This document shows, in pieces, positions 1 through 41,171 of a DNA stretch of 64,000 nucleotides (the first letter of the stretch is position 1; each line of letters starts with the position of its first letter). Source of the stretch: Azolla caroliniana (taxonomy: Eukaryota; Plantae; Polypodiophyta); assembly GCA_043228905.1 (NCBI GenBank), contig JBHGNT010000005.1:11098001-11162000 (forward strand). Reading direction: 5' to 3'. The notes under the pieces were generated by a model. The model was not told the origin of the DNA. It did no database searches and saw nothing but the letters and a program-made list of their open reading frames with translations. Both the position numbers and the translations under genes were made by a program.

Positions 1-2950
1 CTTTTCGGAATTTTTGCATTTCTCCAAGCATAACCGGAGATAGGCAAGATGTTCTCCTTTCCTGCTGTACACCGCAAAGTCATCCAAGAACACATGCATA
101 AACGCTAGGATAAATTCCCCGAAAATTTCCATGATGATTCGTTGGAACATTGCTAGTGCCTTTCTTTACCGGCCAGATGAACCCAACCCATAGCAACTTG
201 TCGATCTCCTCTTTTACTTTAGCTGCATAATTCGGATTCATCCGGTAATGTCTCTTCGTGACCGGTTTTGCATCATTGCTTAAATGAATCTGGTGTTGAT
301 ATAATTGCGCGTCCAATCCCCGCATGTCTTCATATGACCACACAAATACGTCCCGAAATACTTTCAATAATGTGACGATTGCCGATTTCTCCTCTAGTAG
401 CATTTCTTTGGCCACCTGCACCGATCTTGCTTCTTCGTTGGTTCCCAAATTCACTTCTTCCAATTGTGATGCTTTCACCCATTGTGATACTTCCATCTCC
501 CGCTCTAGGGCCTCTTGTGCTTGTCGCAGTTATTGGATCACGTCCCTATCCGGCTCCTCACTGGCATCCTCCTGTTGCCCAATATATGGGGAGATCGCCT
601 CTACAACGTCCACTTCGAACAGAGGGACTATCCTTGGGTTTTTATCAAGGTAGCGATCTACCTCCTCATTGGCAAGCCCATTCTTGGATTCCAAGAGTAT
701 TGCATGTTCGGAGGCTTATTACGTTTACTCCCGATCTGCCATCGATGATCGTCCCTGGTACTTCCCGTCCTTTGATAATGGTGGTGATTGTGGAACTCCT
801 GGTATCGACCACTGTCAGCCCTTCCGTCGGATTTTAAAAGAATGTCAGAGCCAGTGTGGGGCCTGGTGGGGCCCATGCCGATTTTAAACCATCAGTGAAT
901 CAGAGCACCAATTGCAGTAACCGACCCAGTGGTAGCATGATCTAGCATTCCTGTAATGCCTGCCATGTGGGGTTCTCCTGCTATGTCATCTCTGTAGGTT
1001 CCTCCCATGCGTTCCTTTACTCCTTCAGTTCAGTGACATTCCGTTCATTTGCCTTTTCGATCCATTCCGTTGCTTGTTTGCGGATAGTTTCTTGAGCCTC
1101 CCATTCGGCCATCTTTCCCTTTGATCTAGTGGTGACTTGCTAGATGTCTGCCACTTCCACAACCACTATGTTGACTACAGATCATTTTTCGTTACCCTTT
1201 ACCAGACATTGGTTTCTCTAGTGTCCCTCCTAGCGGCAATAGTAGCAATACACCTTCCATGTATTGCCAGACTCTACTTTTTGCATGTTACCCAATTGAA
1301 ATCCGGATACTACCCGGTTAGGCTGCTCTGCTCTTCTTTGTTTTGTTTGAGCGCTAGTTATGCTTCTGTCCGGCTCTCGTTGGTAATCCTTCACCGGTTC
1401 CCGATGATCCTCTTTCCGAGCATTCCGTTTTTTATTATAGCATCGGTTGTTCCAATATCCAACGAGATTATAGCGTCCGCGCTGGTCTTCATAGTCTCCC
1501 CGTTGATCCTCTCTTCTCTGATTATAGCCGTGGGAGTAATCTTGATTATAACGATCATCGTTATAGTCGCAGCTTCTCTCGCTCTGGTCCTGGTCATACT
1601 CATCCCGTCGGGCACTGTATTGGATGTCTTGTATCGGTCGGTAGCGATCATCTCGCTGAAATCGTTCTTCTTTGTCTTCCCGGTTGTTCTGGGTCTCGAT
1701 GTGCTGGACTGGTGCAGCTTGTTGATTTAGCAGGTTGTACTCGTAGCGGTCCATTGTGTGTGACTGGGAGTGGAATAGCATGCATTGCGATCTCATCGTG
1801 CACTCTATTGTTGAGTACCCGGGGTTAAGGCACGTCGTGCATTGGACCGCCTGGCGAAAGCGCAAGTCCTCTTCGGTAGGGAATGTTCTTTGGAGTGCTC
1901 CCATCGTCAACCATGAACTCGTTTTGTCCATTTCCATGACCCGATCAATGACCTGATCTATTGTGCTTGTCCGAAAATCTATGACCGCACACAATTCGGA
2001 GAGGTTCCTAGAGCGCTGCCCAAAATACCGCTTTTGCTTTTGCTTTTGGCAGTGCTCTGGTGAGTTGACTATGCATTGTTTGGAACCGGATAATGAACTG
2101 CTGAATGGTTTTGAACAGGTCCTGCCATGTCGTATAAAATTGGTCGACAATCTCTCTTTGATCCACCTATCTATGGAAGAAGCGTGGAAATCTAGCATTT
2201 AAATCCTCAAACGTGGCGATAGTGCCGGGGAGGTGCTTGGAGTGCTAATGTGTTGAATTCCGCAAATTTTTATCATTCTACCTCAGTATCGTTCAGTCGT
2301 TGGGAGACATGATTCACCTCCCAAGTTTGGAGAAACACGTATACATGGGCTTCTGCGTCCGGATCATCCCGATACTTTGGATATTCGTAAGGCATTCTGT
2401 TGTCGTCTCCTTGTGTTGTCGGGGCCGGTGTCGGAACTCGTTACTCCTGTTTCGTCGGTGACTCGGGTTGTGGTGTCGGAACTCGCTCCCCCTCTTCGTG
2501 TTCCGCGCTAGTCGTTTTGTCCGGAGCTTCCAGTTTTGTGGTTTCTAGTTATGGTTTTGTTGTCACCGACTCCGGTTTTGTTGCTTCCGGCTTCAGTGTC
2601 GTTATGTGGTCCGATTCGTCATCTTCCGCGTCGTCTAGGGTATCGTGGCTACTACGCTAATTCGATTCGATGTTGTGTTCGCCGTCCGAATCTGATTTGA
2701 TGAAGGAGAACGCTTCCGAACTATCGTCTCTTTCGGCAAGTCTCTGCAAAATGGACTCCGCTTCCTGCAGACTACTCAGACTACCTCCTTCTTCCGGGTG
2801 GTGGTTCTGTTGCAATCAGAGTGACTCCTCCGCGACCCGCCGAATCACTCTGGAAAAAGACCGATCTGACCGGATCTCCTCCACCACCTGCTGGTAAGCC
2901 TCCCACTTTCATAGTCTCTCAGCGAGTCTTCTTGCTCGCTCGGCCACTAG
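1..2950 (-). pseudogene. gag-pol: Degenerate gag-pol (gag, protease, RT start) with frameshifts and stops
   Basis: ORFs 1230-2198 and 80-496 are homologous to the + strand gypsy at 25997-28928. Confidence 0.85.
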
Positions 2951-5767: not shown

Positions 5768-6887
5768 TGTCGTGAAGATTTTCGGCAATGGTGTGAAAAT
5801 CGCATAAAACATACGAAATCAAGTATGAATCATATAAAACAATAATAGTGAAAATACTATTTTAAATAAGTTTAATATCTTAGTACAAAAAGATGGAGGT
5901 CTTCAAGAGCTTTCGAATGCACTTTACTACATAAGAAATGGACATCTAAGACTCAAGTTATGTGGGTAAGAAGTTTGCAAAGGAAAAGAGAAAGATAAAA
6001 CTGTGAGATATCCCACATAGACAACACAAATAAGGATCTCACCATATATAAGGCAGAGCAAAAGCTGTTATCTTTGTGTCTATGTGTGGAGTATAGAGAG
6101 TTGAAGATGACTTGAACTAAGCTAATTGGATGAGTGGGTGTGGCCTAGCTACTTGTAAAGGTTTTGGCCAACCAAAACCAGCGGCAACTGGCGACGGAGC
6201 CGGTGATCGGCAAGTAGCAACGAGCGGGTGACTAGCAAGCGACTCGGGATGTAGACTGGGCCAGACCACACAAATGCAAATCAGACGGATCGGTCTGGTT
6301 GGTTGATTGCGGTGCATGGTGTCTTAAAGATATTTGGTCCAAAAGCCTAATAGTATTTTGTGCATAGAAGATGTAAGCAAGACTTGAACTTTGCACCTCC
6401 AAGATAGGAAGCAATAAGCCTACCATTTCTTTAGTGGTTATATTTTTATCATTATAGGTTTACATGTAAATTCTCATATTAGAGCTTGATTGAGTGACAT
6501 GTGATGCATGAACGCCAAATGGCAAACATGCATTCCATGCATTGTATGCATGTCTTGTACCCTCACATGCATCATATGCATGGGAGCATCTATAAAAGGG
6601 TGGATGAAAAAAATCAAAGGGGGGCGATGTATTAATCAAGAAATTAAAAGTAAAAAACTCATTATCCAATGGATGTATCAATCTTGTTCTTCAAATCTAA
6701 AGTCAAGAATTCAATCTTATTCTCTCTCAATCTAAAGTCAAGCGTTCTATCTTATCTCAATCTCTCTCTCTTTCAATCTATCTTAATTCCTTTCTCGCTA
6801 AAGTTAGTGCAAACTTTGAGTCCTTCCGGTCCAGAACCCCGGCGGTTCCCCTTCACGATCCGCACGTAGTGACGGATCTTCACGACA
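5768..6887 (+). mobile_element. Solo-LTR-like insertion (1120 bp) with 4-bp TSD ACGC
   Basis: TGTCGTGAAGAT...ATCTTCACGACA terminal inverted repeat; ACGC at 5764-5767 and 6888-6891; related copy at 47937-49217. Orientation is tentative. Confidence 0.8.
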
Positions 6888-7125
6888 ACGCTCTGTACAA
6901 AGGATGTATTTAGAGAGCAGTTTTATACATGTCCATACGGACTGACCAAAGTACTAATCCATACTTTAATTCTCATCAATGAGCCCCTATACTAACTCCC
7001 AAACTATATTCCTCCGTGGAATATCTATCCAACGGCCTCTTGGTTTATGCACCGATACGGCCTTTAGTTACGCACCCAGTCTACGCATTGGTTTACGCAC
7101 CCAATGTTATGCTTGTATCTCAACA

Positions 7126-8938
7126 AACTCCAACCTGTTGACAATATTTAGTAGAGGGATATGTTTGTGATGGATTATACCCTGAAGATCTAGGACTTGT
7201 GTGGTCACTCGACTCCATCAATATTACAGTTGACGACAACGAGATGATGCAAATTTTCCTTAGTAACCTCACACATAAGTATGGTGCATTTAGAACCACC
7301 ATAAGAATAATGTAGAACCCCTCAAGCCTTTTTGACTTATAATCATTGGAGATGGTTGTAGAGAACCATATAAGGTCAAAAAGTGTGACATCTAATGGCA
7401 AATGACTTATACATAGGAAGATGTTGTCAAGGTCACAATCTTGGAAATCAGGGGAGGAATGGCTGAGGAAGAGGTGGACAACGTCTAGAATAGTTTGATT
7501 TTTGGTAGTAAGAAGATGGAAGCATCTGAGTGGATAGCCGTTCAAGGGAGAGCTTCTATCAATCCACATCCACCCCATAAAATCCACAAATTGAGGGTTG
7601 ACATTGTGGAAAGTCTACCCACTTCGAAGTAGAGTGTTAGAACAAGAAGAATGACACAACAACCTTGCCCCAATAACAAATGAACTATGCTAAAACATTT
7701 GGCTGAGATATAAAAGACCAAATGTTTGGCTTGTGACACTAGGTGAATTGCATAACGAGCACTTCCAACCTAATCATGTTTGGTTCATCGACTTACAAGC
7801 CCCAAATCACATGATGAGCCATTAGCAATGGTTTACAATATAAGGGAACTAAGAGACTAGACATGGTGTTGATTGATGATTATCCCACACACATGATCAA
7901 GCACATTGGGGATTTTCTTCTTTACCAATGACGACAAGAAGACCTATATCAAGGATGTACTACATGTCCTAAGAATCACAAAGGATTTGTTCTCAGTTGG
8001 CCAAATTGTTGATCAAGGAAAGCAAGTATGATTCAACCAGGGAAGTTGCTTTATTGAGTATAACGACTTGGCTTATTGCTTATGTGAGAAGAGATGATCA
8101 CATGTTTATCTTGAATGCAACCAAAGTAAACACCACGATGTACGCAAAGGAACTAGGCCAACTCTGATATTGAGTTGTGGCACAAGAGAGTTAGTTGGCC
8201 ATATAAACCTCGATAAACTCTTATTGATATTGTAAAGAATTGGGTATGATTCTTGTGCAACGGAGAGATATGTGTTATGTGTATGTGTGAAAGGAAAAAG
8301 AGGAGAGAAGAGAAAACACAAGATAGATAGATAGGAACACAATGAATTACTCAAGAAGAAGATGTATATTCACAAGTAGAATAAGAGATACAAAAATGTA
8401 GCATTACAAGGAGTCACAACCGACTTAGTATGAAGTATGAGGAGGGTGCTTTATATATAGTCACCCTCTCTCTTCACTAAGTAACTACAACAACCACTCT
8501 CTCTTGGGGAATGTGAAGACTCATAGTCATGGGGAATATGTAACTCATTAGTTATGTGTCATAGAATATGATTCTATGAGACATATTTAATGTGTAGAGA
8601 GTAGTGGTGTGACTCTTGACCTTTGAGTAATCATAGATTCTCAAAAGGTGTGTTCACATGTTGCACTATGTTGAGCTTGATTCTCAACAGATATTGATAA
8701 AAGGAGTTGTGCAAAAGTTGTTGCAATTTTTTCTAAAAAAATCCAATAATGTATACAAAGTGTGCTAGCTAGGCAAACAACAAAAACAGTCATTCTCGAG
8801 TGAATATGAGTAAATGATTGTTAGATATCATAATTTCACTTGGATTTATGGGGCTAACCTCAAAACAAAAGATTTAGTGGGTATATATACTTTGACAATT
8901 ACCTTCATCGACAATTATTTGCAACATACCTAGATATG
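7126..8938 (+). pseudogene. Highly decayed copia gag-PR-INT fragment (oldest layer)
   Basis: Remnants of DYTLKI, DDNEMMQI, KDLFSVGQIVDQG and ELWHKR. Confidence 0.7.
8231..8689 (-). mobile_element. Copia solo LTR (459 bp)
   Basis: TGTAAAG...tgttgagcttgattctcaaca; TSD GATAT at 8226-8230 and 8690-8694. Confidence 0.9.
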
Positions 8939-9914
8939 TGTAAAAGATTACATGGCGGAAGCAGTATGTGTGAACATAGCCTGCTCAGCCATACATTAGA
9001 GACTAGATAGTTAGGAATACATAGACTAGGAGAGAGAGAGAGAGGGACTAAGTGAGCAGACAGAATTTGTATTATCAAAAGACCTAATACTCAGTACATA
9101 CAATGTGCTTATAGAGCACTTTTTATACAAGCCCTAACAAGTGGCCTAACACAAAGTACTATCACTACTCTTATGCTCATTAACTGAGCCTAACGCTGAT
9201 TAGCCCACAATGGGCCTATTTACTAAAATCAGTCTGTCAGATTCCTTCCTACCTGACCAGCCGATTTGGCCTACCAACCGATTCATCTCATGGGTTATTC
9301 AATCGATTAGGATCTAGTCGATCTTCCTTCGTCCGACCCGTCTCTCAGCTTCTTCAGCCAATTCGGCCCATGTTGAGCTTGTCACTCAACACACTCTCTC
9401 AAGCTCAACTTGAGGTCCCGATGTGTTAGCTCCAACTGGATTTTGCACCTAGCATCTCCTAGCGTATTCACACCTTGTTCACGCTGCTCGTCTAGTCGGG
9501 TCCCATGTCCCACGATCCCTCTGGTCCAACGCTCCTCGACCCGTTCAGATCCTTGCTTCTCGATCCCTACGGTCAACTCGTCTGCTCCTCAGGCCCCCCT
9601 TGTCAACCTGGCCTTCACATGATCCATCTCATCCAGATCACTTTTCATCTAATCACATCCTAGTCTCGGCCTTCATCTTTAGGTTGCCTCTGCCCTTCTT
9701 GGGTCTGCCACCTGCCTTGCCTTTCTCAGCTTTGACCCCCCCTATTCAGTTGGCTCCGACTTTGGCTGTCTCTTTCGACCGCTCCTACTACAACTAGCTA
9801 GTCTTCCCTTGCCTATTCTTCTTCCACTTGTCCTCTCGTCTGATCTCTCATTGGCTTCTTCAGCCAATCCAGACATTCTGTCTTCTTCAGTCGTCCCGAA
9901 ATTGAATTCCACAT

Positions 9915-10210
9915 GGGTGAAAGCATGCGAATGGAAACACTATTATAGCTATTTAGCTGGTAAATTGACCACAGCTAAATAGTTTTTTTATAGCTAATTT
10001 TTAGTAGGAAGATCTTAAAGATACGTATCATTTATGATGGGGATGGAAATATTAGCATTTATGGTCCACCGTTTAGCTAGTCTTTATTTGAGATCAAATT
10101 CTAATCATCCCTAAAATTGCCAAAATATATAGATTACATGTAGCTAATTAGATAGCTAATTAGCTATGTCAAGGACATAGCTAATTGTTCCCATTCCCAT
10201 GCTTTCACCC
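9915..10210. mobile_element. MITE (296 bp), 25-bp TIRs, 4-bp TSD ACAT; Sola-like
   Basis: GGGTGAAAGCATGCGAATGGAAACA at the left end and its inverted copy (2 mismatches) at 10186-10210; ACAT at 9911-9914 and 10211-10214. Confidence 0.85.
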
Positions 10211-10249
10211 ACATCCGTTTCGGCTTTTTGGACTTCATCTCTCTCCATT

Positions 10250-12345
10250 TTGCCTTTGCTTTTGCTACTTCTCCCCTCAAGTTTGGCATGTCGAGGTGTT
10301 GTAGGCCAAGCATACTCAAAAAATGCCGCAACTTGTCTAGGCCGAGAGGTTTGGTGAAGATATCGTCAACTTGTTGATCCGTCGGAACATATACAAGTTT
10401 GACTTCACCGGAGAGAACTCCCTCGCGGACAAAATGAGAATGCACCTCAATGTCCTTCGTGCAAGCATGGAAGATAGGGTTTTTTGGTAGGTGGATGTTG
10501 TTGAGGTTGTCACGATATATCACTGTCGGCTCAAATAACTCCATCTGCAAATCCTTCAAGAGCGTCTTGAGCCATATGGCTTCGCATATCGCGATAGCCG
10601 CTCCTCTATATTCAGCCTCGATGCTTAACTGTGCCACTATCAGTAGCTTTTTGCTTCTCCAAGAAATCTCGACGCTCCCTAGTGAAAACACATATGCCAA
10701 TGTTGATCTACGATCACCAACATTTCCATCCCAATCGACATTCGTGTAGCCGTAGCCGACCAACTGTCTGGCTACACTAGTTTGATACAATGACACCCTA
10801 TCATTAGTGTCGTTGACATATCTCAAGATTCTTTGCGTGCATTGAAGATGCTTGATCGTCGACTGTGACATAAATTGACTAATTAGTCCAACTAGATAGC
10901 CGAGGTCACATATATGAGGCTTCCGATAGTCTGTCAGAACTATGTTGCGTCGCACACCGTTCCCGATCTAGGGCAAAGTTTGACGTTTTTGTCAAGAGGA
11001 CTCAAGACGATTTGCAATCTGTCATTTTGAACTTGAAGAGCATACTCACCACATAATGCCTTTGGCTGATTAGTATGCCTTCTGGGGTGCAGATCACTTC
11101 GATCCCAAGTAATGAAGGTCAATTTCCTCCTAGTCGGCGTCGGTGATGACCATGTCATCCACATGTAACAGAATGCTAACCAGCCCGTTCCGACCTTGTC
11201 GGATGGACAACAATGTGTCCGACTTCAACGACAAAACCCCATCCGTCACAATCTCTACATGATGTTTATGTTCCAAGCACGAGAGGCTTTGCTTTAGTCT
11301 ATGGAGGGACTTCTTTAGTTGGCAGATGATCGATATGTTCAATCTGGACTGAAATCTAGGAGGATGCACCATATACAGATGTTCCTCAAGCTATCCTTGT
11401 AGGAATGCATTCTTTATGTCCATCTAGTGTAGGTACCATCCCTTCATTGCGGCTACTACCAACAACACCCAGATGGCACAAATGTCTTGTTATAGTCAAT
11501 GTCATGTTGTTGTACGTAGCCCTTGGTCACTTGTCGGGCCTTCTACCGGTTGATGGAGCCGTCACTGTTGTACTTTACCTTGTACACCCACCTGCATCCA
11601 ATCGGCTTCACACCCTTGGGGTCATAAACAAGGTCCCAGGTTTCGTTCTCCGCCAATACATGAATCTCTTCCTCCATTGCGTCTTTCTCCACCTCTACAT
11701 AGCTCTCCTGCTCATGCACTGCCGCCACCTTCACCATATACACATAGTGATGCGCCATGTATTCATTGTACCTATAGTGGATTACGGGGTTCTTCGAATG
11801 GATGGATCGGCACAACCTCTGATTTGCTGATTACAAGGAACTCTTGGCCAATTGTGACCTCATTTTTGAAGGTCCATCATTTCTCTTGGCTGCATTGGAT
11901 TTGCTCTGGTTGGATGCGCCAGCCTCTACGCCATTTTCCGGCATCTTCATCTTCCCTTTGTCCTTGCACGCGGGAAACTCAGCCTCATCCTCAGAATTTG
12001 GAATGGAGTAAATGGGGGTCGAAGACGAAGGCAAGTACAACTTGTCGAATATGACATCTTTATTAACTCAAACCTATTTCGTTCAAGGGTTATAACATTT
12101 ATAACCTTTATGTTCATCTGAGTAGAAAACCAAAATGCACTTCTCCGCTTTCGCATCCAACATTCTCCTCTTCTCTTTCGGCACATGCACATATACTATG
12201 CTCCCGAAAACCCTCAAGTATTCGAAGTTTGTTTTCTGCTCGAAATAGAGCTCGTGTGGCGACTCTCCTCCATTTGTAGTTGTCTGATGTTGCACATAAA
12301 CAGTCGTCCTGACCGCTTCGGCTGGCAGTATAACGTTGGTGTATG
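10250..12345 (-). pseudogene. pol: Copia A pol (integrase C-terminus, RT, RNase H), disrupted
   Basis: ORF 10164-10955 (RRST...DIFTKPL), [37 protein letters not shown]. Confidence 0.9.
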
Positions 12346-12868
12346 TGTTGGGAAATTAGTCTCTCCGGATGGGATCCGATGAGGAATAAAGAGGACCCTG
12401 TGAGAACCGGAAAAGAGCTAGTGAGAACAAGAAGAGATCCGGAAACCGGATCGGTGGACCCGGTGAGAACCAAAAGAAAAGACAGACTTGTAAATATGTC
12501 TTGAATAAGCCCATTGAGGCTATATTTGTAAATAGACCTAAGTTCATATAACTATAAATATGACTTAGGACAATCATTTTAATTCGTGTTGTTGTCATGT
12601 TGCTGTAACTATTGTATAGAGAGAGAGAGAGAGAAAGAGATACAAAGTGATACTCTGTTGTAACCGCCACTGTGCGAAGAAACACAGCTCGAGGTCGTGG
12701 CCTCTATGTCTCTGAATGTACCCCCTTTCTCTTCATAGTGATAGTTCAGAGTCTGTGGGCTCCCGTGGTTTTTTCCCTATTAGGGTTTTCCACGTAAGCA
12801 TCCTGTGTCATTTTTCCTTTTGTGTACTCTCCATTTCCCATTTCTGTGTTTGATTCTTAAAGAAGTAT

Positions 12869-13302
12869 TGTTAACTCTTAGGGCCAGACAATGGCCTAAC
12901 ACAGGGTGTCTACGGAAGACACTTCACCAAAGGGGTGTTACGGCAAGAGGATTAGGCTCAACGATTAATCCGACTTAATTAGGTTACTTAGCAAGATCGT
13001 CCTTAATAATCACACGCGTAAGATATAACAATGAATGCAGAACGACAATTAACACACAGAGATAAAAACACTAAGCTTCGTTAATTATCCGATGCTCATT
13101 ACATTGTATCCGGGCCTTTAAATAGGTTTCCGGTTTGTAGTACAAAATGGTGCCATCCGCACCTGTTCGGGATCGGTCCGGATCCGGAATGGCATACCGA
13201 TTCCGGTCCGTCTGTCCACACTAATAGCTTACTTACAACCATTCCTAATAATTAAATAACTCCTTCGTTTCACACTCTGGACTCCTTTGTCGGCTGGTAA
13301 CA
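12869..13302 (-). repeat. 3' LTR
   Basis: Direct repeat of 16406-16839. Confidence 0.95.
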
Positions 13303-13304
13303 CA

Positions 13305-13344
13305 TGGCACGCCCGTGGGACAGTACCTTGTACGTCGAATCCAC
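13305..13344 (-). promoter_or_regulatory. Bipartite tRNA-Arg(UCU)-like sequence at the PPT position (inverted PBS)
   Basis: Element sense: GTGGATTCGA-cgtacaaggtact-GTCCCACGGGCGTGCCA-tg-LTR. Confidence 0.8.
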
Positions 13345-13357
13345 CATCCGACCCTTG

Positions 13358-16340
13358 CTATTTTTCATCCAAAATATCCAGAATGCTTTGTTCGAGAGTC
13401 TCCAATGGTTCATCTAGAATTGGTTGTTGTGGTTGCTGCTGCTGCTGTTGCTGCCCCGTTGATGGCTGCTGCGACTGGTCCGTTGGTGGCTGCTGCGGCT
13501 GCTCCTCCGTTTGTTGCTCTGACACCGGCGTTTCCGTTGTTGCTCCCTCCGTCGTAGTGGTCTCCGGTTGACTGATTCCGGCCTGGCCCTCGGCCGGCGA
13601 CGGTTCCTCATCACTAAGGTTAACCGTTGCCGCTTCCCGTGCTTTTTCTTCCCGAACCCGGGACCGCTCGTAGCTCTCAAACTGGATTTGAGCATCCAGC
13701 CTATCATCGTCTAGCTGAGCTACGAGTTGTCGGACCTGCACCAACTGTTCATCCGCCAGGACTTGGAAGTCTTCAGCTAGCTCGTCCCGTATGGCGGTGA
13801 AGTCCTCGGAACAATCATCTCCTTCCTTCCGCCGGTTTTCCACGCCTTCCTGTAGCAATTGGAGTTCCGCCGTATTTTGTGCCCACTTTGTCCACCATCT
13901 TACGGAGCTTTCGTCAATCAAGTGTTTTGTCTGATTCAACCATGCCCGGAGGATGCACTGAATCCGACCCGTTCCCATCTGCAATTTGATCTCCGCAGCT
14001 TGCCGTTCCTCCTTCAATTGCTTGATGATTATGACGTTGTCTTCCGCCTGCTCCTTGTAATGCGTCAATTGCCCTTGATATGTGCTTTGTAATTTTTGCA
14101 ATACCGTTGACGCTCTCTCCCTTTCTTCCTGCTGCTGCCTCTAGAGCTCCATCCGAACCTTCTCCGCCTCGTCCAACCATCTTGTATTTTCCGCTCGTTC
14201 GTCAGCGAGCACCGTCGCGGCCCGATCAACTTCCTGTTGGAGCTCTGCCATCCGTTCCTTATGCTCCATTTCCAGCCGTTTGTAGTCTCAGTGCAGGTGC
14301 TCAAAATGATCTGTCTTTTGCTTGAGCCGTACGTTGAGCTGTCGACGAGCCCGATCCTCGCGGTCCTTCTGCTGGCGGAGCTCCTCCTTTAGCCGTTCAA
14401 TTTCCGTTTTCGCCGTCTTCCGCAGCTTGTCCTTTTCCTGCAGCACTTTGTCTTTTTCCTCCCTTAACCGGTCATATGCTTGATGGCCTTTCCGGAGGCT
14501 CTCCTCTGCCCGGTGGAGGTTCTCAGCAGTCTTCTTTAATTCTGCTTCGGCCACTGTCTTCAATTCACGTTCACGGCTCCTTAGCGCTTCTTGTGCGGCA
14601 AGTTCATCTCTCAATTCCGCAAGCTCCTGGGCTTGCGCCGCATCTCTCTCTGCAACGGTTTTCGTTGCCGGGGTCTTATTAGTATATACAGGTTGGTTTG
14701 TTTCTTTATTCTGTACACTTACTGGAGTCACCGGTGATTGGATCTGTGTTGCCCTTAAGGCCATTTTGGCCATTTCTGCCGTGACCTGATCCAAGTCTTT
14801 TTCAAGGCACCGGATTCTGGACCGGGCCGTCTCTAGTTGTTCGGTTGTGACGAGCAACCGTTCTCTTTGCGCTCTTTCTTTCGCCTCAATATACCCCACT
14901 GCTCCGGCAATCTGTTCGCCTATCCACCGGAGCCACATGCTACTGGTGCATTGTTGTTGCGCTTGCACGGAGGTTTGACGGATGGGCTCGCTTGTGGGTG
15001 GGTGGTCTCGCCTAATTGTGCCGAGTTGCAATTCCGTTTCTGCCCGTGGACCACCCTGCTGTCCTGGTTCCCCTTGCGCTTCTTCTTGGTTGGCCGAGGG
15101 AGGCTGCATTGACCTTTTCGGCTCTGGCGGAATGGGACTTGCCCGTGCTGCCGGTGGTGCAGCGGCTTCTGATTCTGGTGCCATGCGCACCAGTTCCGGT
15201 TCCTCCCTTGGCGCGGGAGTCTCAATATGGGGAGCCGGTGTTCCCTCCGTCTGAGGGTCCGAACGTTTCCCAGCTGCCTCAACGGTCCTTGCCAACGACC
15301 GTCGCTGGAGGCGCTCCGTAGGCTCCTCCTCTATTTCCTCCTCCTGAGTCCCGACATTGAGTTTCGCCGCCAAGGGGTCCGCTTCTCTATTCACCGGTCG
15401 GTGGAGTGTAATCATTACGGGCCAATACCGGTGGTTCCTCCTGCGCATCCGTTGGCCGCTTCCGGCTGGCGCTCTCCTTTCCCGTCTGTTTTGCGTCCGC
15501 CGTCTTCCCCTTAGTGGCCTTAGAGGCCAACAACTGTTGTCTTTTGGAAGCAGTCTTTGGGGTGCCGTCCGCCACTCTTCCCCGCTTCTTGGGTTGGACG
15601 GGCTGGACGGGTGGCACAAGCAAGGTGAGCCACTGCGTTACTACGTGCCATATCCTCCGTCCGTCTCGGCCTTCTTTGCTGTCTTTTCCTCTGACGATCT
15701 CGATCGCCGCACACAAACCGTCTGCGATCAATACCAGCCAATCCACCTTGATCCCTTCATAGGTGGCGATGATCATCCCTACCCGGTTCTGCGGCATGAC
15801 AGGGGGTCTAGGGTACACATGGCCGTATTCATGGAGCACACGGGCAATCTCACGGAACAACATATCTCCGCCGCCCTGTGTCCGGTAGCCCTTGCTAGCT
15901 AGGGAGTAGTCACCAAAATACTTGATGAGTTGCTCCGAGGTCGGATTGTCAATCGTGAATATGCCTCCCTCCAGAAGGCCTGTTAACGCACAGATCGCCT
16001 CATCCGTTATGACCTCTGTGTCGATTTCTTTGATCACCTTGTCGGCTTCTTTGTGTGGCAGTGCCTCCATAATCGTCAAGAAGCCCTCGAGCCCGTGTTG
16101 CTTTAGCCATTTCTTGGCGGCTTCCGACAGTGTTTGCGGGTCCATGTCTGTGTCGAGGTCGGATTGTGGTGGCGAGGTTGGATGGTGATGAGAGTGAGAG
16201 TGAGAGAGAGAGAGTTCAGAAAGCGGGGGTTGTCTGTGCATAGGTTCTCGTCTGGTGATCTGCCAACACCTTGGTGCTTCTATGCTCCTGGGTTCGCGAA
16301 AGTAGAAGGTCTCCATGCGCTGTGGTTTTTCTTTGTCCAT
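13358..16340 (-). pseudogene. Accessory (extra) ORF of roughly 950 codons, frameshifted: globular N-terminal domain, basic NLS-like PKKRGR, long coiled coil, polyQ linker, ILDIL C-terminus
   Basis: Overlapping ORFs 15387-16439, 14288-15619, 14065-14304 and 13358-14101; homologous to 31236-34070 (e.g. GMIIATYEGIKVDW vs GIIIDTFEGHAVDW). Confidence 0.8.
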
Positions 16341-16388
16341 TCTGGCGCCTTTTTCGAGCATGTGCACGTCGCTGCAAAAACAGGAATC

Positions 16389-16398
16389 GTGGTTGCCA
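16389..16398 (-). promoter_or_regulatory. Short PBS TGGCAACCAC (tRNA-Arg(UCG)-like, one mismatch)
   Basis: 7 nt inside the 5' LTR; same context (cagtttt-TGG...gattc) as 3009-3025. Confidence 0.6.
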
Positions 16399-16405
16399 AA
16401 AACTG

Positions 16406-16839
16406 TGTTAACTCTTAGGGCCGGACAATGGCCTAACACAGGGTGTCTACGGAAGACACTTCACCAAAGGGGTGTTACGGCAAGAGGATTAGGCTCAACG
16501 ATTAATCCGACTTAATTAGGTTACTTAGCAAGATCGTCCTTAATAATCACACGCGTAAGATATAACAATGAATGCAGAACGGCAATTAACACAGAGAGAT
16601 AAAAACACTAAGCTTCATTAATTATCCGCTGCTCATTACATTGTATCCGGGCCTTTAAATAGGTTTCCGGTTTGTAGTACAAAACGGTGCCATCCGCACC
16701 TGTTCGGGATCGGTCCGGATCCGGAACGGCATACCGATTCCGGTCCGTCCGTCCACACTAATAGCTTACTTACAACCATTGCTAATAATTAAATAACTCC
16801 TTCGTTTCACACTCTGGACTCCTTTGCCGGCCTGTAACA
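16406..16839 (-). repeat. 5' LTR
   Basis: TGTTA...TAACA; TATTTAAA on the minus strand near 16655. Confidence 0.95.
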
Positions 16840-16920
16840 AGTATTTTACTACTCAGTTGTGGCCGACCAATATTTCACGCGTTTCTCTACAAACTGGTAT
16901 CAGAGCGAACAACACAGAAA

Positions 16921-22790: not shown

Positions 22791-24190
22791 TTTGGTCTTT
22801 TCTTCTCCGAGAAATACAGGCTCGTCTCTATGCTAGTTCACATGTCACTTGCAAAAGATTCTTCTAACCCTTTTGCTCTGATGCCATGTAAATTTAGATT
22901 ACATGTGTGGAAGCGTTATGTGCGAACAAAGATGTAAAAGAATACGTGTGCGGAACCGTATGCGAAAGACACAAAGTATACGGTTCGAAAGTACGATAGT
23001 TCAGTAAAACGCAGAAAACAAAACTATATTCAAGATAATTCTATGTATGTTCTCTGTGTGCATACTTTATGCTCTGTGAGCACCTTTTATACAAGCCCTG
23101 ACTATTGGGCTGACACAAGTACTTAGAGTTCTTGACCGCTCATAAATGAGCATCCTACACTTACTCCCAAAATTATTCCTTATGAGGAATAACATTCAAA
23201 TGGCCTCTCGGTTTACACACCGCTACAACCATATTGTGCGTATGGTTTTACGTACCCAGTCTACTCACTGGGTTACGCACCCGTTTACGCACCCAATGTT
23301 GAGCTTGTCTCTCAACACTTGAGATTCGCCCACGCATCCTTTGGCGTCTTAGCATCCCGAATGTAGCTCAAGAGTTGGTCGCTCACACAGGACGCGAAGC
23401 AATAAAAAACTCTACTTACCGCTTGTTCCCAAGCCAAAAAATCTCTATGTGTCGATTCAGGTGTTTTATCATTAGCTCCTTCAACATAACTCTAGTAACC
23501 ATGACCAAGTAGGTACTGGTGCATCTTGTACGACCAAGATGTGTAGTTGCTCATGTAGAACTTCTCAGTTGGTAGCAAGCTTCCCATTCCTCTGTCCATA
23601 TTACTATCTTATCCTTTCCGAAAACAATAACTTAACTCTGTCTTTATCACAAGCTTTTATGTTAGCTACAAAGGAGTCTCAATCCTCACACTTTGACACC
23701 ATGTAAAAGAATACGTGTGCGAAAGACATAGAGTACACGGTTCGGAAGTGTTACCGATTAGGAACACATGCCACCCTCAATCCTTCAGGGTAGCTTACAA
23801 GGTGACTGTGGTGCAAGGGAATAGGAATGCGTATTACGTGATCGATAGGGTGTAAGGAATAGACGGCTACAACCTAACCTTTATAGGGGCGTAGCACCCA
23901 ACGCGTACTTACCTTGTGTTTGCTGCAACACAGTCATATATAGAGAACGAGACACGGAAACAAGAGACCAATAGGCCAATAGACAGAACACCAAGATTAG
24001 AGAAGATAAACTAATATTAAAACGGCACTCTCATAATACGCTAGCCCTTTACAATGGTCTCTCGCCCTTTATATACACAGGGCTTCCAATCGGTTATGCT
24101 CCCTGCATACAACCGTTGCACGTTACTTTAATATAATACTCTATTCTCCATGCGTTATGTCCGGCGGTTACAATTCCGACGAACAACAAC

Positions 24191-24230
24191 TGCCACGCCT
24201 GTGGGACAGTGCCATGGCACGTCGAACCCA
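24191..24230 (-). promoter_or_regulatory. Bipartite tRNA-Arg(UCU)-like sequence at the PPT position
   Basis: Element sense TGGGTTCGA-cgtgccatggcact-GTCCCACAGGCGTGGCA-gt-LTR (CCA reads GCA here). Confidence 0.75.
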
Positions 24231-25996
24231 TCCGCTTCCTATTCGTCGCCCAAAATGTCGAGGATGTTTGGCTCCGTTCGTTCATCATGCACCGGAGGCG
24301 GAGTGATGTCCGTAGGTGCTTCGCTGGTACGCTCGGTTGGTGCATTGGTTTACGTGTTGTCCTCATCACATGGCTTCGTTCGTTTGCCATGCATCGGAGA
24401 TGGCGTGATGTCCGTAGCTGCTTTGTTGTTTGCCTTGGTTGGTGCGTCGGTCTTCGTGTTGACTTCTTCACACGGTCTCGTCGTGGTGGGCTCAGTAGGT
24501 ATGTTGTACGGGACATTTCCTTGTGGCTCTGGCGATGGATCTTCTTGGCGTGGACAGGCGTCTGGGCGCTGCTCCTCTCCGCTCGTAACGACCGCAGGGC
24601 TGCTCGATGTAGTTGTTTCCTCCGGTGCGTCATTTGGGTTAGGCTCGCGCTCATTGTGTTTGGCGGAGTCGTTGTCTGGTACTATTATTGCTTCCACCCC
24701 TTTCAATTCCTCCGCCCTCTGACTCTTGCTGCCGAGCTCCATTAGTAGGTTGAGGATGTCTTCCTAACTTTCCCCAAAATCTTCTAGCAGCTGCGTGAGT
24801 TCTTTAGAGTGTTGATCAACGAGCGTTTGATAATCCTGCGTGAGGTCCTCCCTGTTGGGAAATCAATCCCTCTGGATGGGATATGGTTATGAATGAAGAA
24901 GACCTATTGAGAACCGGAAGGATCCGGAAACCGGATCGGATGGGCCTGATGAGAACCGGAAGAGAAGATATATTTGTAAATATGTCTTGAGTAAGCCTAT
25001 TGAGGCTATATTTGTAAATAGCCCTAAGTTCATATAACTATAAATATGACTTAGGGCAATCACTTAGAAATGTGTTGTTGTCATATTGTTGTATGTGTAT
25101 TACTGTTGTATAGAGAGTAATAGATACAGTGAGAGAGGAGATACAGAGCAGAACTATGTTGTAACCACCACATGGCTGTCGGTTCAGTTCGGGGACAAGA
25201 GACCGTATAAGATCGATGCCACAGTGTGGGAGGTGATGCACATGAAGACGATGACATAGATCCGGTGCTTCATCGACATGAGCCTGTACAACAACTTAAA
25301 TGAAGAGAGCAAGGCTCATGAACTCTGGGAGAAGATCGACATCATGTTCGAGAACAAGAATGTTGTTAATCGGGTTTCGGTATTCCGGATGCTCGTGAGG
25401 CTCCGGTACTAGGACAACTCCAATATGGTGGAGCACATGAATGCATTTTTCTAATAGAATACTATCTTCTCTTATTTCTATGCATATCTGTGGTTTTCTC
25501 TGTTGCGTATTGTTAATCGTAAGGGTGTAGGCGTAAGTGCGGATACTAGTGCACTTCCTAAGGAGTTTAGGTTTTAGTCATCTCCCTTATACGCTACTAG
25601 GATATGAGGGAGTATCCCATTACGATTCATGGTACAACGGTTCTATTCCTTGTAAGACAGTCACCTTGAGGTCTACGTCGAAGGACTGAGCGTAGACAGT
25701 GTTCCTAATCAGTAACACTTTTGGCATGCCTAGGGCTCTGTGATTTCTCACAGACAAACAGCAAGGGATGGATGTCTAGTCATAAACGGCCCAGAGAACT
25801 GACCAGACAAGTCCGAGCACTCACGAGGTCCATCACATGCCAGACAAAGGAGTGTGCAAGGCAGAAACCTCGCCTCAGTGATATTTGTCTAGACCACAAA
25901 GTTGACTCCACGCTCACCCAACACCGCAACGTCAAGCAGGAAGTTCTGTCACCACACAAGTACTGTGATCTTTCCCTGCCCACCATCGCATCCTGA

Positions 25997-31235: not shown

Positions 31236-34070
31236 ATGGCTCACAGACCAATGAACCCTAGGCCACAAAAAGAAGAAAATAGAAGGTTTTCTGCATAGTA
31301 CAGAAACCACTCTTCAACCTCTAACCCTCCTCGCTCTCGTCGCTCTCCTCACTCACCTTACTCCCCATCCTACCACAGAACCTACATTCACCATAGCCAG
31401 TAAACCTCACCCACTACCCACGAGTCTCAACCACCTACGATGCCGATCACTATTTCTGTCGCCTTGCGTAGATGGCTCCTTGAAAAGAGCCCGGATAGAT
31501 ACATCAAAGTCGTCGAGGCACTTGCTCAACCTGAAGCCCTGGAAATTGCCAAGAAGCTCAATATAGATACGGTCACCAATGCTACCATCCAGAAGAAGCT
31601 TGACTTATCATCGCTTGGAGAAAAACATTTCGACATCCCTCATGCGGAAACCTTGTAGAGATATTTCAGAGCATATTCAGTGTTTGCCAAAGCATACAGG
31701 ATGAAGGAACTCCCCGCCCCCTTCTTTTGAGAAATAGCCAAGTTCTTGCTGGAGGTAGGATGTGTACATGTAAATGCCTATGGGATCCCAAAGCAGAAGG
31801 CAGGCATCATCATTGATACCTTTGAAGGGCATGCGGTCGATTGGGGGGTAATTATGGGACCAGCATTACAGGAACGCCTGATGATACTATTTCCACCCCG
31901 AGGTCTGCCCGCACCACAACCCAACAAACCCATGCCGCCGCCACGTTACGCGAAACGAAGGTTAGCGGAGTTGGCTACCATGGAATGAGAAGATGAACCA
32001 TAACCTTCCCAGCCCAGCACGCGGACAACATAGGGAGAACGGCCAATGAGCAGGTAGGAAGCTCCACAGGAGCAGGAAGCCGGGCAACGCCAAGAAAGCC
32101 CGAGGCCGAAACGGCATAGGCTGGACATGAAAGATGGACGCGGACTAGTCAAAGACACAACCGTGGACAAAGACACAATCGCGAAAACAGACACGACTGC
32201 CTTGGTTGACAGTTCCGCAACTACGGAACCGAAGACCACTTTCGAAATAATCCGGGAACCACGACCGATCATTACGGCCCAGTCACAGCGAGGGAAAGGC
32301 GTACTCATAGCGGAAAGCAAAGTCCTAAAGTACCTGGACATCCCGGATATAACCCATGAGTTCGGTGCACTACTACAATTTGGAACAACTTACGAACTCA
32401 TGGAATTTTTGGCAACGCAACAAATCAAGGTATCCTAGAGAATGGCGGAGGAGCACGCAAGAAAATAGATGATTGAGCGAGCGCTCACACAAATAACGGA
32501 AAGTGAGGATGAAGGGCCCCTAGTCAAGGTAGGCAGGCAACAAAATGCAGGGATTCAGTGTATGGGCATCGAACTACCTCCATTGAATGCGGCCCTAGTC
32601 GAGGTACATCGGGAATTGGCTAGAGAGTGTATGGGGGCCAAAGATATGGCTAACAAGAATAAAAACGTGTCGAAAATAGTCAAGATGACTCAAGCCCAAT
32701 TATACCATGCCCAAGACGCATTACGGAGCTCGAATAGAGCGTCACTAGGGCGCCGCAAAATCCCGAACCAGCAACGGGTGAGGACCTCTCGGTAACCCTA
32801 CAAGAGGAGATTGCCACACAACAGGCCATCGCTGCTAAAGCAAAAAGGGCTACACAGCTTGCAGAGTCCGAGATTGACCGCCTCCGCTCTGAACTCCGCC
32901 AATCTTCCGATAGAGAAAAGGACATCCGGGCCAAGGGCCCAAAAGCAGTGAAGGCACTCGAAGAGAAACTCGAAGCGGAGACAACAACACACACCAGCAC
33001 GAAAGAAGAAAACACCAAACTACGGGAGGAAGCCCAAAAGTCGAAAGCGGCGATTGTAGGACTCCAGGCATTATTGGAAAAGAGGAAAACATGGTACGAC
33101 GAGCAGCTCGTACGAGAATAGGAGGTGAGGCATCAGGTCGAAATCCGCCTGAACAATGAAATGGGCCGGCTGGAGCAATTACACTCGAAGGAAACTCAGA
33201 TATGGGTAGGAATGAAGAACAATTATGAGGAAGCGGTTGCGGTTAGTAAGCAAGAAATCGAAAACCTCAAAAAAACCCTAGAAGAAGCGCAAAACCGCTG
33301 CCAAGTAATAACCGACAACGTGAGCATACTTCGTCAAACAAATCGGGAGAGGTTTACGGCGCAATTACAAGCAACGCTAGACAAAGGTTGGATGGTGTGG
33401 GCAACACAAGCGGCAGAGTTGCATACCTACTGAGTGGACTGGGAGAACCGTAGGAAAAAAGGCCGAGGAAGGCATTGCGGCAGTACGGGAGGACCTAGCA
33501 TAGGATTATCACACGCTAGCGGACCAACATTCCGAGGAACTCGCGCAGCTACTCCACGATTTCGACGAAAGTCATGAGGATATTTTTCACCGAATCATGG
33601 AAATAGGCAGCACACGGCAAAGTGCGGAACACATCGCGATACCAAAAAGTGATACCGCCGAACAGTAGGAACCTTAGCCCAATTCACCGGAGATTACAAC
33701 TACGGCAAGCAGCACGTGGCAAAGAGTGAAGCCCATCGCGATACCGGAAGGTGATACCGCCGAACAGGAGGAACTTCGGCCCAAATCACTAGAGAGGACA
33801 ACTACGGCCAACAACACTGAGGAAGTTACGAACAGGACAGAGCCTCAGCCTACTGAGAGCCCACAAACACAACAGCTAGCCACAGTAGAACGGAATGAGC
33901 CAGTAGACCTGGGTCCGCCCACGCAGGGAGAAGTTGACGCCATGGAAAACCCCACCGAGCAAGTACAAGACATGCAACCGCGCAACGACGTGCCTACGGG
34001 CACTACACCTTCCCCAGACCGGTACGTAGGAGTGGAGCCAAACATCCGGGATATTTTGGAGGAAGAATAG
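31236..34070 (+). pseudogene. Accessory 3' ORF (sense orientation), disrupted
   Basis: Fragments 31440-31658, 31746-31988, 32127-32438, 32469-32795, 33125-33433 and 33726-34070; homologous to 13358-16340. Confidence 0.8.
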
Positions 34071-34075
34071 AGGGA

Positions 34076-34115
34076 TGGGTTCGACGTGCCATGGCACTGT
34101 CCCACAGGCGTGCCA
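34076..34115 (+). promoter_or_regulatory. Bipartite tRNA-Arg(UCU)-like sequence replacing the PPT
   Basis: TGGGTTCGA-cgtgccatggcact-GTCCCACAGGCGTGCCA-gg-TGTTG(LTR). Confidence 0.82.
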
Positions 34116-34117
34116 GG

Positions 34118-34560
34118 TGTTGTCCGCCGGAATCGTAACCGACAGACAGAAGCGCAGAAACATTATAATATAGTAAAGCATGAAGAAACACATGTAACAG
34201 TTCATGCAGGAAGCGTGAACGCCTAAAAACCCTGTGTATATAAAGGGCAGAAATCCTCTGTAAGAGGTAGCGTGTAATTTTGGGATACAGAGCGTTTTTC
34301 TAATAGAATACTATCATCTCTGATCTCTGTGCATATCTGTGGTTTTCTCTACTGTGTTCTTTGTTTCTCTGTTGCGTACTGTTAATCGTAAGGGTGTAGG
34401 CGTAAGTGCGAATACTAGTGCCATCTCCCTTATACGCTACTAGGATACGAGGGAGTATCCCATTACAATTCACGGTACGAAGGTTCTATTCCTTGTAACA
34501 CAATCACCTTGAGGTCTACGTCGAAGGACTGAGCGTAGACAGTGTTCCTAATCGTTAACA
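34118..34560 (+). repeat. 3' LTR of element D (443 bp)
   Basis: Its 3' part matches 25446-25717; TATATAAAG near 34236. Confidence 0.92.
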
Positions 34561-39985: not shown

Positions 39986-41091
39986 ACATCATCTAATTGG
40001 CTCAAGACATCAAATGTATTTTTATGACAGGGACTACCAGGCCTACTTGGGTTACGAGAAGGCGGGGCAGAAATTGAGATGGGATTGTCCTGAGCACTTA
40101 CTTGGTTAACTTGTCGTCGTGGTTTATGTGGACAATTCACAGCAATATGCCCTAGACCACCACAATAGAGGCATAGATGATTCGCTCGCCGTCATTGCTT
40201 TTCAGCATCCGATAATGGTCCTCGACGTTGTGTTGTCTCGATTTCCATTGTAGTAGGCCCTTCCACCACACTTGACTTTGATACTTGGGGTGGAGTTGCA
40301 ACCACCGAAGCATATGTTTCTGTTGGTCGAAAACGTAACATTTGTTGGTGCTCAGAACGCCGCTCAAATAAGCGATTGTCACATCGCACGGCCCGACTTA
40401 CTGCTTCAGTAAGAGATTTTGGATCATCATGGAAGGTAAAAAGTAAATCCTTCACATCATTGCGCAGACCTTGACGAAATTGGTCCATTAATGTTGCCTC
40501 GTCCCATGGAATATCACATGCTAGAAGGCGAAAATCTGCAGCATAAGCGAAAGTAGGATGATCTCCTTGTCGTAATCGCCGAATTTTGTTTATTGCAGTC
40601 CTCATACTATCAGTGTCTCCAAAGTTGGCTTGGAACTCATTAATAAACCCTTCAAAATCTTCTAATAATGGTGAGTGCTTCTCTAGGAGTGGTGCAAACC
40701 ACGCTAATGCGGTACTCGTTAACAAGGTACTAACTAGACCCACATGAGCAACATCAGTTGGGTAACGGCTAGGATGCAATTTAATCACAAGCCGTACCTG
40801 ATTTAAAAATCCACGAAACTGAGACCTTGTACCATCAAACTTGGCCGGCAGACTAACCTTGGGTTCCTTCGTCGAGGTTTGAACTTCCGCCGCTTGTCGT
40901 TGCAATAGAGTAGTCTCCAATTGATGCACCCGTTGAGATAATTCATCATATTGTTGTACTTTTTCAGCACTTACTTGTTGTAGGTCTCCCAACAATCTTT
41001 GATTTTCATGATCTAGTGCCACGAATTTGGTTGTTAGCATTTCGAGCTCGGAGAGAACATGCATATATTCTTGCTTGCTGACGGACTCCAT
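39973..41091 (-). pseudogene. gag: Chromovirus Gag with a single premature stop at 40192-40194
   Basis: PAKFDGTRSQFRGFLNQ capsid domain; the frame continues past TGA through CLYCGGLGHIAVNC to TAA at 39973-39975. Confidence 0.9.
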
Positions 41092-41171
41092 AGTTGCAAT
41101 AGAAAATTGCTAGATTTGGTTGAATAAGGTTAAGATAAGAAGAAGAAGTTGGAGAAGAAGAAAAGAGATAG

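What the first reader, a model, noticed from the sequence alone, without database searches (positions are those of the whole stretch)
13303..13344. Compensatory base change in the hairpin that splits the tRNA-like site
In this divergent subfamily the insert is c-GTAC-aag-GTAC-t, versus c-GTGC-catg-GCAC-t in elements C and D. An A-T pair has become G-C with pairing preserved and the loop changed. Both tRNA-matching arms and the 2-nt spacer are conserved, although the neighbouring LTRs and ORF linker are barely alignable. This suggests selection on structure, such as a three-way junction with tRNA analogous to retroviral primer-activation signals, rather than an accidentally captured tRNA fragment. 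It rests on one covarying pair.
Basis: partly seen in the sequence, partly recalled or inferred. Interest (0 to 1): 0.8.

Follow-up and report, generated by a model that had tools for sequence, protein, structure and literature searches.

The report
Hairpin-split tRNA site replaces polypurine tract
A group of plant jumping genes lacks the purine-rich signal that normally starts the second DNA strand and carries in its place a copy of an arginine tRNA's 3' end, split by a small hairpin whose base pairs are kept through repeated two-sided changes, so a host tRNA likely starts the second strand as well as the first.

Summary
The 13-nt insert at 13322-13334 is a 4-bp hairpin. In 52 sites from 13 flank families it is always 13-14 nt. 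Three of its four pairs show two-sided changes, at least four events by parsimony, and the two middle pairs hold in 31 and 32 of 32 distinct rows. The hairpin sits between the matches to tRNA-Arg(UCU) nt 59-76 and nt 49-58, two bases before the 3' LTR. This is where other LTR elements carry the polypurine tract (PPT), and none of 45 related loci has one there. The elements form a non-chromovirus Ty3/gypsy clade outside the seed-plant Athila and Tat rows sampled. Best reading (0.55): a host tRNA anneals to minus-strand DNA as a three-way junction and primes the plus strand. Main rival (0.25): the element's own tRNA-shaped RNA is the primer. Which strand folds is unresolved, and priming is untested. 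The scan has already reported this system on other pieces of the same genome; new here is the covariation test. Eight literature searches found no description.

The parts
13303..13304 (+). 2-nt spacer between the CCA match and the LTR terminus
   Evidence: LTR boundary from the twin LTR and the target-site duplication; NN+TGT in 50 of 52 sites, with eight different dinucleotides
13305..13321 (+). Arm 1: complement of tRNA-Arg(UCU) nt 76-59, lacking one of the two G opposite nt 65/66; lies on the element's minus strand
   Evidence: Compared with the captured tRNA copy in L002; no deletion at that place in host tRNA contigs at 2%
13322..13334 (+). 13-nt insert: 4-bp hairpin (13323-13326 with 13330-13333), placed between the matches to tRNA nt 59 and 58
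   Evidence: Covariation; folding
13335..13344 (+). Arm 2: complement of tRNA nt 58-49 (T-loop and 5' T-stem), with one T-G wobble at 13340
12869..13302 (-). 3' LTR of non-autonomous element B (434 nt; 12 differences from the 5' LTR)
16406..16839 (-). 5' LTR of element B; 5-bp target-site duplication at 12864-12868 and 16840-16844
16387..16398 (-). Ordinary 5' primer site of B, 7 nt behind the 5' LTR; shares only its first 5 nt with arm 1; tRNA not identified by a tool
13358..16145 (-). Extra ORF of B (one frame change, two internal stops), homologous to the sense extra ORF behind pol in D and L044; no Pfam or PDB match
24189..24231 (+). Same site in truncated element C (spacer, arm 1, 14-nt insert, arm 2)
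34075..34117 (-). Same site in element D, directly before its 3' LTR (34118-34560), downstream of gag-pol and the extra ORF, which lie on the + strand
25722..25731 (+). Ordinary 5' primer site of D, 4 nt behind the 5' LTR end; 10-nt tRNA-Arg(UCU)-type match

Best explanation
The hairpin is a conserved structural part of a signal that stands where the polypurine tract should be, and it likely lets a host tRNA-Arg anneal to the new minus-strand DNA in two segments, as a predicted three-way junction, and prime the plus strand. SHOWN: the site lies two bases before the 3' LTR in gag-pol orientation; it matches host tRNA-Arg(UCU) nt 49-76 apart from one missing base and the insert; there is no PPT; the stem covaries. 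INFERRED: after RNase H clears the RNA, arm 1 pairs with tRNA nt 76-59 (one base bulged) and arm 2 with nt 58-49 or further; the hairpin takes up the 13-14 nt between them; RT extends the CCA end across the 2-nt spacer into the LTR; RNase H removes the tRNA and integrase trims the two spare bases. The insert falls beside A58, which is recalled (no call) to be methylated and unable to pair normally, so the junction may accommodate that base.
For: Position and orientation: in autonomous relatives L036 and L044, RT-RH-INT, the extra ORF, the site and the LTR are colinear. The duplication abutting B's LTRs fixes the plus-strand start close to the CCA. At most 6-7 purines in any 11 nt of the 30 nt before the LTR in 45 of 45 loci, against 9 of 11 for a copia control and a clear purine run for the chromovirus control. 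Spacer length is fixed and its sequence free. All 4 substitutions listed inside the two arms in read data (C13314T, A13338G, T13340C, C13344T) keep pairing with the tRNA, and the mirror G-to-A changes at the same CpGs are not listed. Arm 2 pairs for 12 nt or more, into tRNA nt 48-47, in 22 of 52 sites, beyond the 8 nt searched for. Both arms are bound in the predicted complex for 16 of 19 inserts, with the hairpin formed in 15. A full tRNA-Arg(UCU) copy with CCA at the 5' primer position of L002, and similar joins in 10-13 contigs in each of three runs, indicate that this tRNA is available to the RT.
Against: No priming product was seen. The outer stem pair is A-C on the minus strand (G-U on sense RNA) in 3 of 19 distinct inserts, from 3-4 lineages, and G-T in only 1. 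In B's large family an extra T in arm 2 bulges against tRNA but adds a pair to an intramolecular stem. The T opposite A58 is invariant although a methylated A58 should not need it; it was part of the search pattern. The hairpin adds at most about 4 kcal/mol, and only 6 of 19 inserts had 5 or fewer of 100 shuffles folding as well. The energies use RNA parameters for an RNA-DNA hybrid and ignore modifications. The T opposite tRNA nt 67 may match another tRNA gene copy rather than wobble (loose-end consensus). No tRNA copy joined to an LTR start appears in the rows shown (206 rows not shown).
Confidence: 0.55

Rival explanations
1. Self-primer: the element's own sense RNA folds into a T-arm-like stem carrying the hairpin, escapes RNase H, stays paired to minus DNA by its last 10 nt and primes the plus strand as a tRNA-shaped substitute for the PPT.
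For: The outer pair favours G-U on the sense strand 3 to 1. The extra base in B's family extends the sense stem. The ordinary 5' primer sites are also about 10 nt. It needs no second tRNA. A T-loop tolerates insertions after nt 58 (recalled).
Against: The pair closing the T-loop is broken without compensation on the sense strand in B itself and in L021, but is a T-G wobble with tRNA. The T-stem shrinks to 3-4 bp in several families. The match to nt 48-47 has no role in a mimic. An RNA paired to its own cDNA should tolerate any base in arm 1, yet only a tRNA-compatible change was listed there. The B site folds no better than its shuffles on either strand (z 0.19 and 0.43).
Confidence: 0.25
2. 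The site pairs with the 5' primer site of the same RNA (circularisation or self-priming of the minus strand), and the hairpin is a protein handle.
For: In D and in the L027 family the 5' primer site and arm 1 agree at 9 and 10 of the first 10 positions, and position 10 is T at both ends of D and C at both ends of L027.
Against: In B's family the 5' primer site shares only 4-5 nt with arm 1, yet the site is unchanged. The captured tRNA shows that host tRNA occupies the 5' site. This reading leaves the plus strand without a primer.
Confidence: 0.07
3. The site is kept for another job (packaging, RT or Gag binding, small-RNA decoy) or is a relic, and the plus strand starts by some unseen route.
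For: No functional data. The families are related, so part of the conservation is shared descent. Sites were collected by exact match to both arms.
Against: Depth peaks about 10-fold or more over the 45-nt site while both flanks diverge. There are at least four two-sided stem changes. The CCA ends exactly 2 nt from the LTR. A family with no hit to gag, pol or the extra ORF keeps the site.
Confidence: 0.09
4. The antisense transcript is the true genomic RNA and the site is its ordinary primer site with a Ty1-like extension.
For: On that strand the site is a longer tRNA match than the 5' site and follows an LTR end.
Against: TATA-like boxes in the LTRs point in the gag-pol direction. Whole-tRNA captures lie inside the element at the sense 5' site. 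The other end still has no PPT.
Confidence: 0.04

Closest known systems
PBS + PPT replication of Ty3 and retroviruses (PMC5371799, passages; PMC10886601, passages)
   Same: LTRs with TG...CA ends, 5-bp target duplication, 5' tRNA primer site, gag-PR-RT-RH-INT order
   Different: No PPT; a tRNA-identical, hairpin-split 42-nt segment ends 2 nt before the 3' LTR
Ty1 extended primer site (10-nt PBS plus Box 0/Box 1; PMC3592414, passages; PMC5371799, passages)
   Same: tRNA predicted to be bound in colinear segments separated by a small looped-out part, opening the T-arm
   Different: The Ty1 site is on genomic RNA at the 5' end and primes the minus strand; this one is complementary to tRNA only on the minus strand, at the plus-strand start
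Bipartite primer sites of Ty3 and Drosophila gypsy (PMC5371799, passages; PMC1635307, abstract and section 19)
   Same: A second tRNA-related sequence near the 3' end of the genome
   Different: Theirs is complementary to an internal part of the tRNA on the RNA strand and serves minus-strand priming; here the RNA strand is identical to the tRNA, including CCA
Retroviral primer-activation interactions (HIV-1, Rous sarcoma virus; one passage in PMC3592414, otherwise search listing and recall)
   Same: Predicted pairing to the 5' side of the T-arm in addition to the 18-nt site
   Different: Those act on RNA at minus-strand initiation and, as recalled, lie upstream of the PBS
Plant non-chromovirus lineages Athila, Tat, Phygy, Selgy (PMC6317226, passages and supplementary table 5)
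   Same: No chromodomain; like Athila, no extra RNase H and an extra ORF behind pol; like TatIII, Ogre and some Retand, a tRNA-Arg primer
   Different: A separate RT-RH clade (support 100) outside the sampled seed-plant Athila and Tat rows; 5-bp duplication and tRNA-Arg, unlike Phygy and Selgy; no such 3' site in the parts read
Helenus TRIMs (PMC10886601, passages)
   Same: A tRNA-derived sequence inside an LTR element
   Different: Helenus carries it within the LTR as a likely Pol III promoter and keeps a PBS and a PPT

Membership tests
Ty3/gypsy LTR retrotransposon | LTRs, target duplication, gag-PR-RT-RH-INT order | tested here: met
Ty3/gypsy LTR retrotransposon | tRNA primer site behind the 5' LTR | tested here: met
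   B-family tRNA identity not established by a tool
Canonical PPT-primed LTR elements | Polypurine tract directly before the 3' LTR | tested here: not met
   0 of 45 loci exceed 7 purines in 11 nt; two window controls show a purine tract
Athila | RT-RH groups with Athila | tested here: not met
   About 40-44% identity; separate starred clade in a quick tree whose Athila rows were labelled by Pfam and similarity; no fern or gymnosperm Athila reference included
Athila | Dominant primer tRNA-Asp or Asn | tested here: not met
   tRNA-Arg(UCU) match in D, L002 and L027
Athila | No extra RNase H; extra ORF behind pol | tested here: met
Tat (TatI-III, Ogre, Retand) | Additional archaeal-type RNase H domain | tested here: not met
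   None in L044 pol, P0001 or P0006
Phygy / Selgy | 4-bp duplication, tRNA-Trp or Ala primer, no extra ORF | tested here: not met
   5-bp duplication (one element), tRNA-Arg, extra ORF present
Phygy / Selgy | RT placement with REXdb references | not testable with these tools
   The REXdb element table and FASTA supplement were too large to read
Chromovirus | Chromodomain on integrase | tested here: not met
   present in the window's control element
Extended tRNA-primer signals (Ty1 Box 0, retroviral PAS) | Complementarity to the tRNA T-arm beyond the 18-nt site | tested here: met
   8 nt or more in 51 of 52 sites, the first 8 nt selected by the search; 12 nt or more in 22
Extended tRNA-primer signals (Ty1 Box 0, retroviral PAS) | Located on genomic RNA at minus-strand initiation | tested here: not met
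   Complementary strand is the minus strand, at the 3' end
Extended tRNA-primer signals (Ty1 Box 0, retroviral PAS) | Physical annealing and effect on priming | not testable with these tools
   Only predicted

The most novel reading that the evidence does not exclude
A whole clade of plant Ty3/gypsy elements has abandoned the polypurine tract and starts both DNA strands on host tRNAs, the second through a DNA-tRNA three-way junction built around A58; non-coding and extra-ORF-only derivatives use the same signal.
Probability: 0.55. Interest if true: 0.92.

Novelty: new variant of a known kind. Interest (0 to 1): 0.8.

Why it matters
The reviews read here describe plus-strand priming by a PPT as the rule for retroviruses and LTR retrotransposons; the alternatives they list (self-priming, half-tRNA, split sites) concern the minus strand. 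A high-copy, recently mobile clade with no PPT shows that the rule can be broken. Under either leading model the RT/RNase H must recognise a tRNA 3' end twice. The covarying hairpin gives a compact 42-nt handle for disrupt-and-restore tests of how RT selects and removes a primer. It also marks elements that PPT-dependent annotation would miss or orient backwards.

Tried and rejected
No whole genome is held for this window. Viral contigs gave 0 pattern matches and no confirmed protein relatives. Rfam and ARAGORN find nothing at the site itself. No RNA holder was listed, which says nothing about expression.

An alternative fold pairing the insert with the start of arm 1 shows no covariation (0 two-sided changes; 500 of 500 shuffles as high), although it is the minimum-energy fold for several sense sequences; rejected. 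The outer helix tested was set one column off and is not used. In one search the arm-2 comparison was corrected at the wrong tRNA index; one search replaces it.

A direct-repeat reading of GTAC...GTAC is rejected, because other families have inverted arms. A hidden PPT further upstream (D has a purine-rich stretch about 45 nt before the LTR) is rejected, because the site would then be part of the LTR, and B's 5' LTR abuts the target duplication without it.

The covariance model found no further full-length site, and none with a shortened insert, in 201 kb. One search lists no hairpin variants although the loci show them, so its variant table under-reports divergent families. The extra ORF has no Pfam or PDB match. 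R-scape was not available.

Full report
OBSERVATION. The window is a nest of plant LTR retrotransposons. At 13305-13344 the + strand reads as a 17-nt arm, a 13-nt insert and a 10-nt arm. On the opposite strand the insert is c-GTAC-aag-GTAC-t, and the two other copies in the window (24191, 34115) give c-GTGC-catg-GCAC-t. Three matches to the arm against 0.14 expected is not chance.

ANATOMY. The site belongs to element B (12869-16839): two 434-nt LTRs with 12 differences, a 5-bp target duplication, and one long broken ORF on the minus strand. That ORF is homologous to the extra ORF that follows gag-pol in sense in element D (tblastx 33% over 142 codons). So B runs on the minus strand and the site lies at its 3' end. 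The metagenome loci confirm this. In L036 and L044, RT, RNase H, integrase, extra ORF, site and LTR follow one another, and across the LTR come an ordinary primer site and gag. All gag, pol and extra-ORF hits on the internal side of the site were in that orientation, except one chromovirus hit in L042, probably an unrelated insertion. In the 30 sense nt before the LTR no 11-nt window has more than 7 purines in 45 of 45 loci, whereas the window's copia (9 of 11) and chromovirus controls show a PPT. The CCA match is followed by two free bases and TGT in 50 of 52 sites. Because the target duplication abuts B's LTRs, the plus strand must start within a few bases of the CCA. This last step is inferred from the standard integration model.

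THE tRNA. Locus L002 holds a full 76-nt tRNA-Arg(UCU) copy with CCA (ARAGORN; Rfam 54.5 bits) directly behind an LTR end, whose boundary is fixed by comparison with L016. Contigs of four runs cover it, correct one position (91-99% of depth) and show no deletion at nt 65/66 at 2%. Against this copy, arm 1 is the complement of nt 76-59 with one base missing, arm 2 is the complement of nt 58 downwards, and the insert falls exactly between 59 and 58. Loose ends in three of the four runs show 10-13 contigs each in which the tRNA copy follows a sequence like D's LTR end, so captures at the 5' site recur.

COVARIATION. A metagenome scan with both arms fixed and 8-20 free bases between them gave 46 matches in 45 loci. 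With 3 looser copies and the 3 window sites there are 52, in 13 families by flank similarity; 46 inserts are 13 nt and 6 are 14 nt. On the alignment (32 distinct rows) 89.1% of stem cells pair against 72.5 +/- 2.3 shuffled, 21 cells show two-sided change against 6.9 +/- 1.9, and the covariation score is 0.473 against 0.194; each 0 of 500. Slid controls reach at most 57.8% and 0.23. Two measures did not exceed the shuffles: number of pairs with a two-sided change (3; 317 of 500) and number of further pair types (5; 372 of 500). These shuffles ignore relatedness. Per pair, from outer to inner: 23, 31, 32 and 28 of 32 rows pair. Among 14 distinct stem haplotypes the middle pairs are Watson-Crick in 27 of 28 cells, reached by 0 of 100,000 permutations, again without tree correction. 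A tree of the extra-ORF C-terminal part could be built for 24 of the 52 sites: 26 had a hit, and C and L022 were left out as out-of-frame pieces. GTGC/GCAC is spread over the deep branches, B's GTAC type falls in one supported clade (96/88), and the GGGC types sit in one weaker group (85/91). Parsimony thus needs at least four two-sided changes: G-C to A-T at the third pair, T-A to G-C and T-A to A-T at the second, and G-C to A-T at the outer pair. The hairpin alone is weak (-1.0 to -2.7 kcal/mol as DNA, -1.7 to -4.5 as RNA), which fits a helix that matters inside a larger complex.

NO FREE LOSS. The scan could not return insert-less copies by design. Independent of that pattern, contigs of four runs (three organism labels, three studies) laid on 13220-13420 peak over 13297-13345 (X1 about 920,000 against 50,000-90,000 in most flank bins; X3 426,000 against 6,000-15,000), with loose ends at 13296-13299 and 13342-13344. 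No deletion of the insert at 3% and no joint were listed. A covariance model found no further full site in 201 kb; the only insert-less tRNA-length match is the capture in L002. A roughly 2.3-2.5-kb family with no hit to gag, pol or the extra ORF keeps the site (L001, L011, L027).

WHICH STRAND. For pairing of tRNA to minus DNA: the four listed substitutions in the arms all keep pairing with tRNA, while G-to-A at the same CpGs is not listed; arm 2 reaches nt 47 in 22 of 52 sites; B and L021 break the T-loop-closing pair on the sense strand but form a T-G wobble with tRNA; co-folding with RNA parameters binds both arms in 16 of 19 inserts, forms the hairpin in 15, and gives -14 to -25 kcal/mol. 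For a fold on the sense RNA: the outer pair is A-C on minus DNA in 3 inserts and G-T in 1, and B's family has an extra base that bulges against tRNA. Both outer positions are in methylatable contexts (read from the sequence), so this count is confounded. The question stays open at about 2 to 1.

LINEAGE. The RT-RH of L044 and of D groups with two unnamed proteins (86% and 78% identity; support 100), then with other unnamed ones, apart from seed-plant Athila-like rows (about 40-44%) and Tat rows (quick tree, long-branch warnings, two outgroup rows misplaced). There is no chromodomain and no extra RNase H. The host is a plant, likely non-seed; this is inferred and was not tested.

LITERATURE. 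Read: PMC6317226 (passages, supplementary table 5; the element table and FASTA were too large and may bear on whether this clade is in REXdb), PMC5371799, PMC3592414, PMC10886601 and PMC11358816 (passages), PMC1635307 (abstract, section 19), 10.64898/2026.03.20.713144 (abstract, section 5; figures and supplements not seen). Eight searches listed nothing that, by title and abstract start, describes tRNA-primed plus strands or a tRNA copy in place of the PPT. The library lacks most subscription journals. A58 methylation, T-loop tolerance of insertions and the upstream position of the HIV primer-activation signal are recalled.

EARLIER NOTES. My reading was recorded before the first look-up. Searches show the same system reported many times on other pieces of this genome. 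These are unreviewed AI notes, not independent support. This report adds the multi-family covariation test, the direction of change, and the strand evidence on both sides.

VERDICT. The hairpin is real and under structural selection. It is part of a PPT-replacing tRNA signal in an unnamed non-chromovirus gypsy clade. Plus-strand priming by host tRNA is the most likely function (0.55), a tRNA-shaped self-primer the next (0.25); either would be a priming route not found in the papers searched. Interest 0.8.

Noticed in passing
L002 2079-2154 (-); also loose ends at L002 2077 in runs X1, X3, X4: A full-length mature tRNA-Arg(UCU) copy with CCA sits at the 5' primer position behind an LTR, followed by an integrase fragment. 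Similar joins recur, so this RT seems to read through the whole primer tRNA at times.
   Followed up: partly
window 16387-16398 (-); L004, L012, L014, L023, L032, L034, L036, L038, L039, L044: B's family uses a different 5' primer site from D and the L027 family while keeping the same 3' site, so it would need two different tRNAs. The second is recalled as another tRNA-Arg type, untested.
   Followed up: partly
L001, L011 (sites at 64 and 2587), L027, L030, L040: A 2.3-2.5-kb non-autonomous family with about 330-nt LTRs, no hit to gag, pol or the extra ORF, and tRNA-Arg sites at both ends; contigs show it head to tail (tandem copies or collapsed assembly).
   Followed up: partly
window 13358-16145 (-); 31440-34060 (+); L044 2901-5912: An extra ORF of about 900-1000 aa, with a conserved N-terminal part, a long predicted coiled-coil-like middle and a conserved W-rich C-terminal motif, has no Pfam or PDB match. 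Element B keeps only this ORF.
   Followed up: partly
window 16720-16745 and 13183-13208: B-family LTRs contain palindromic CCGG/GATC-rich blocks upstream of the TATA-like box.
   Followed up: no
window 36341-41109 (-): Chromovirus with an open 1215-aa pol and chromodomain, and an ordinary PPT; used as a control.
   Followed up: partly
window 47561-50779 (-) and 13-165 (-): Further RT-RH fragments of the same non-chromovirus clade (68-75% identity to L044); no copy of the site was found beside them in the window.
   Followed up: no
L002 2035-2175: Runs hold many diverged copies of this tRNA-Arg gene, some apparently repeated within one contig and some with a changed acceptor stem.
   Followed up: no
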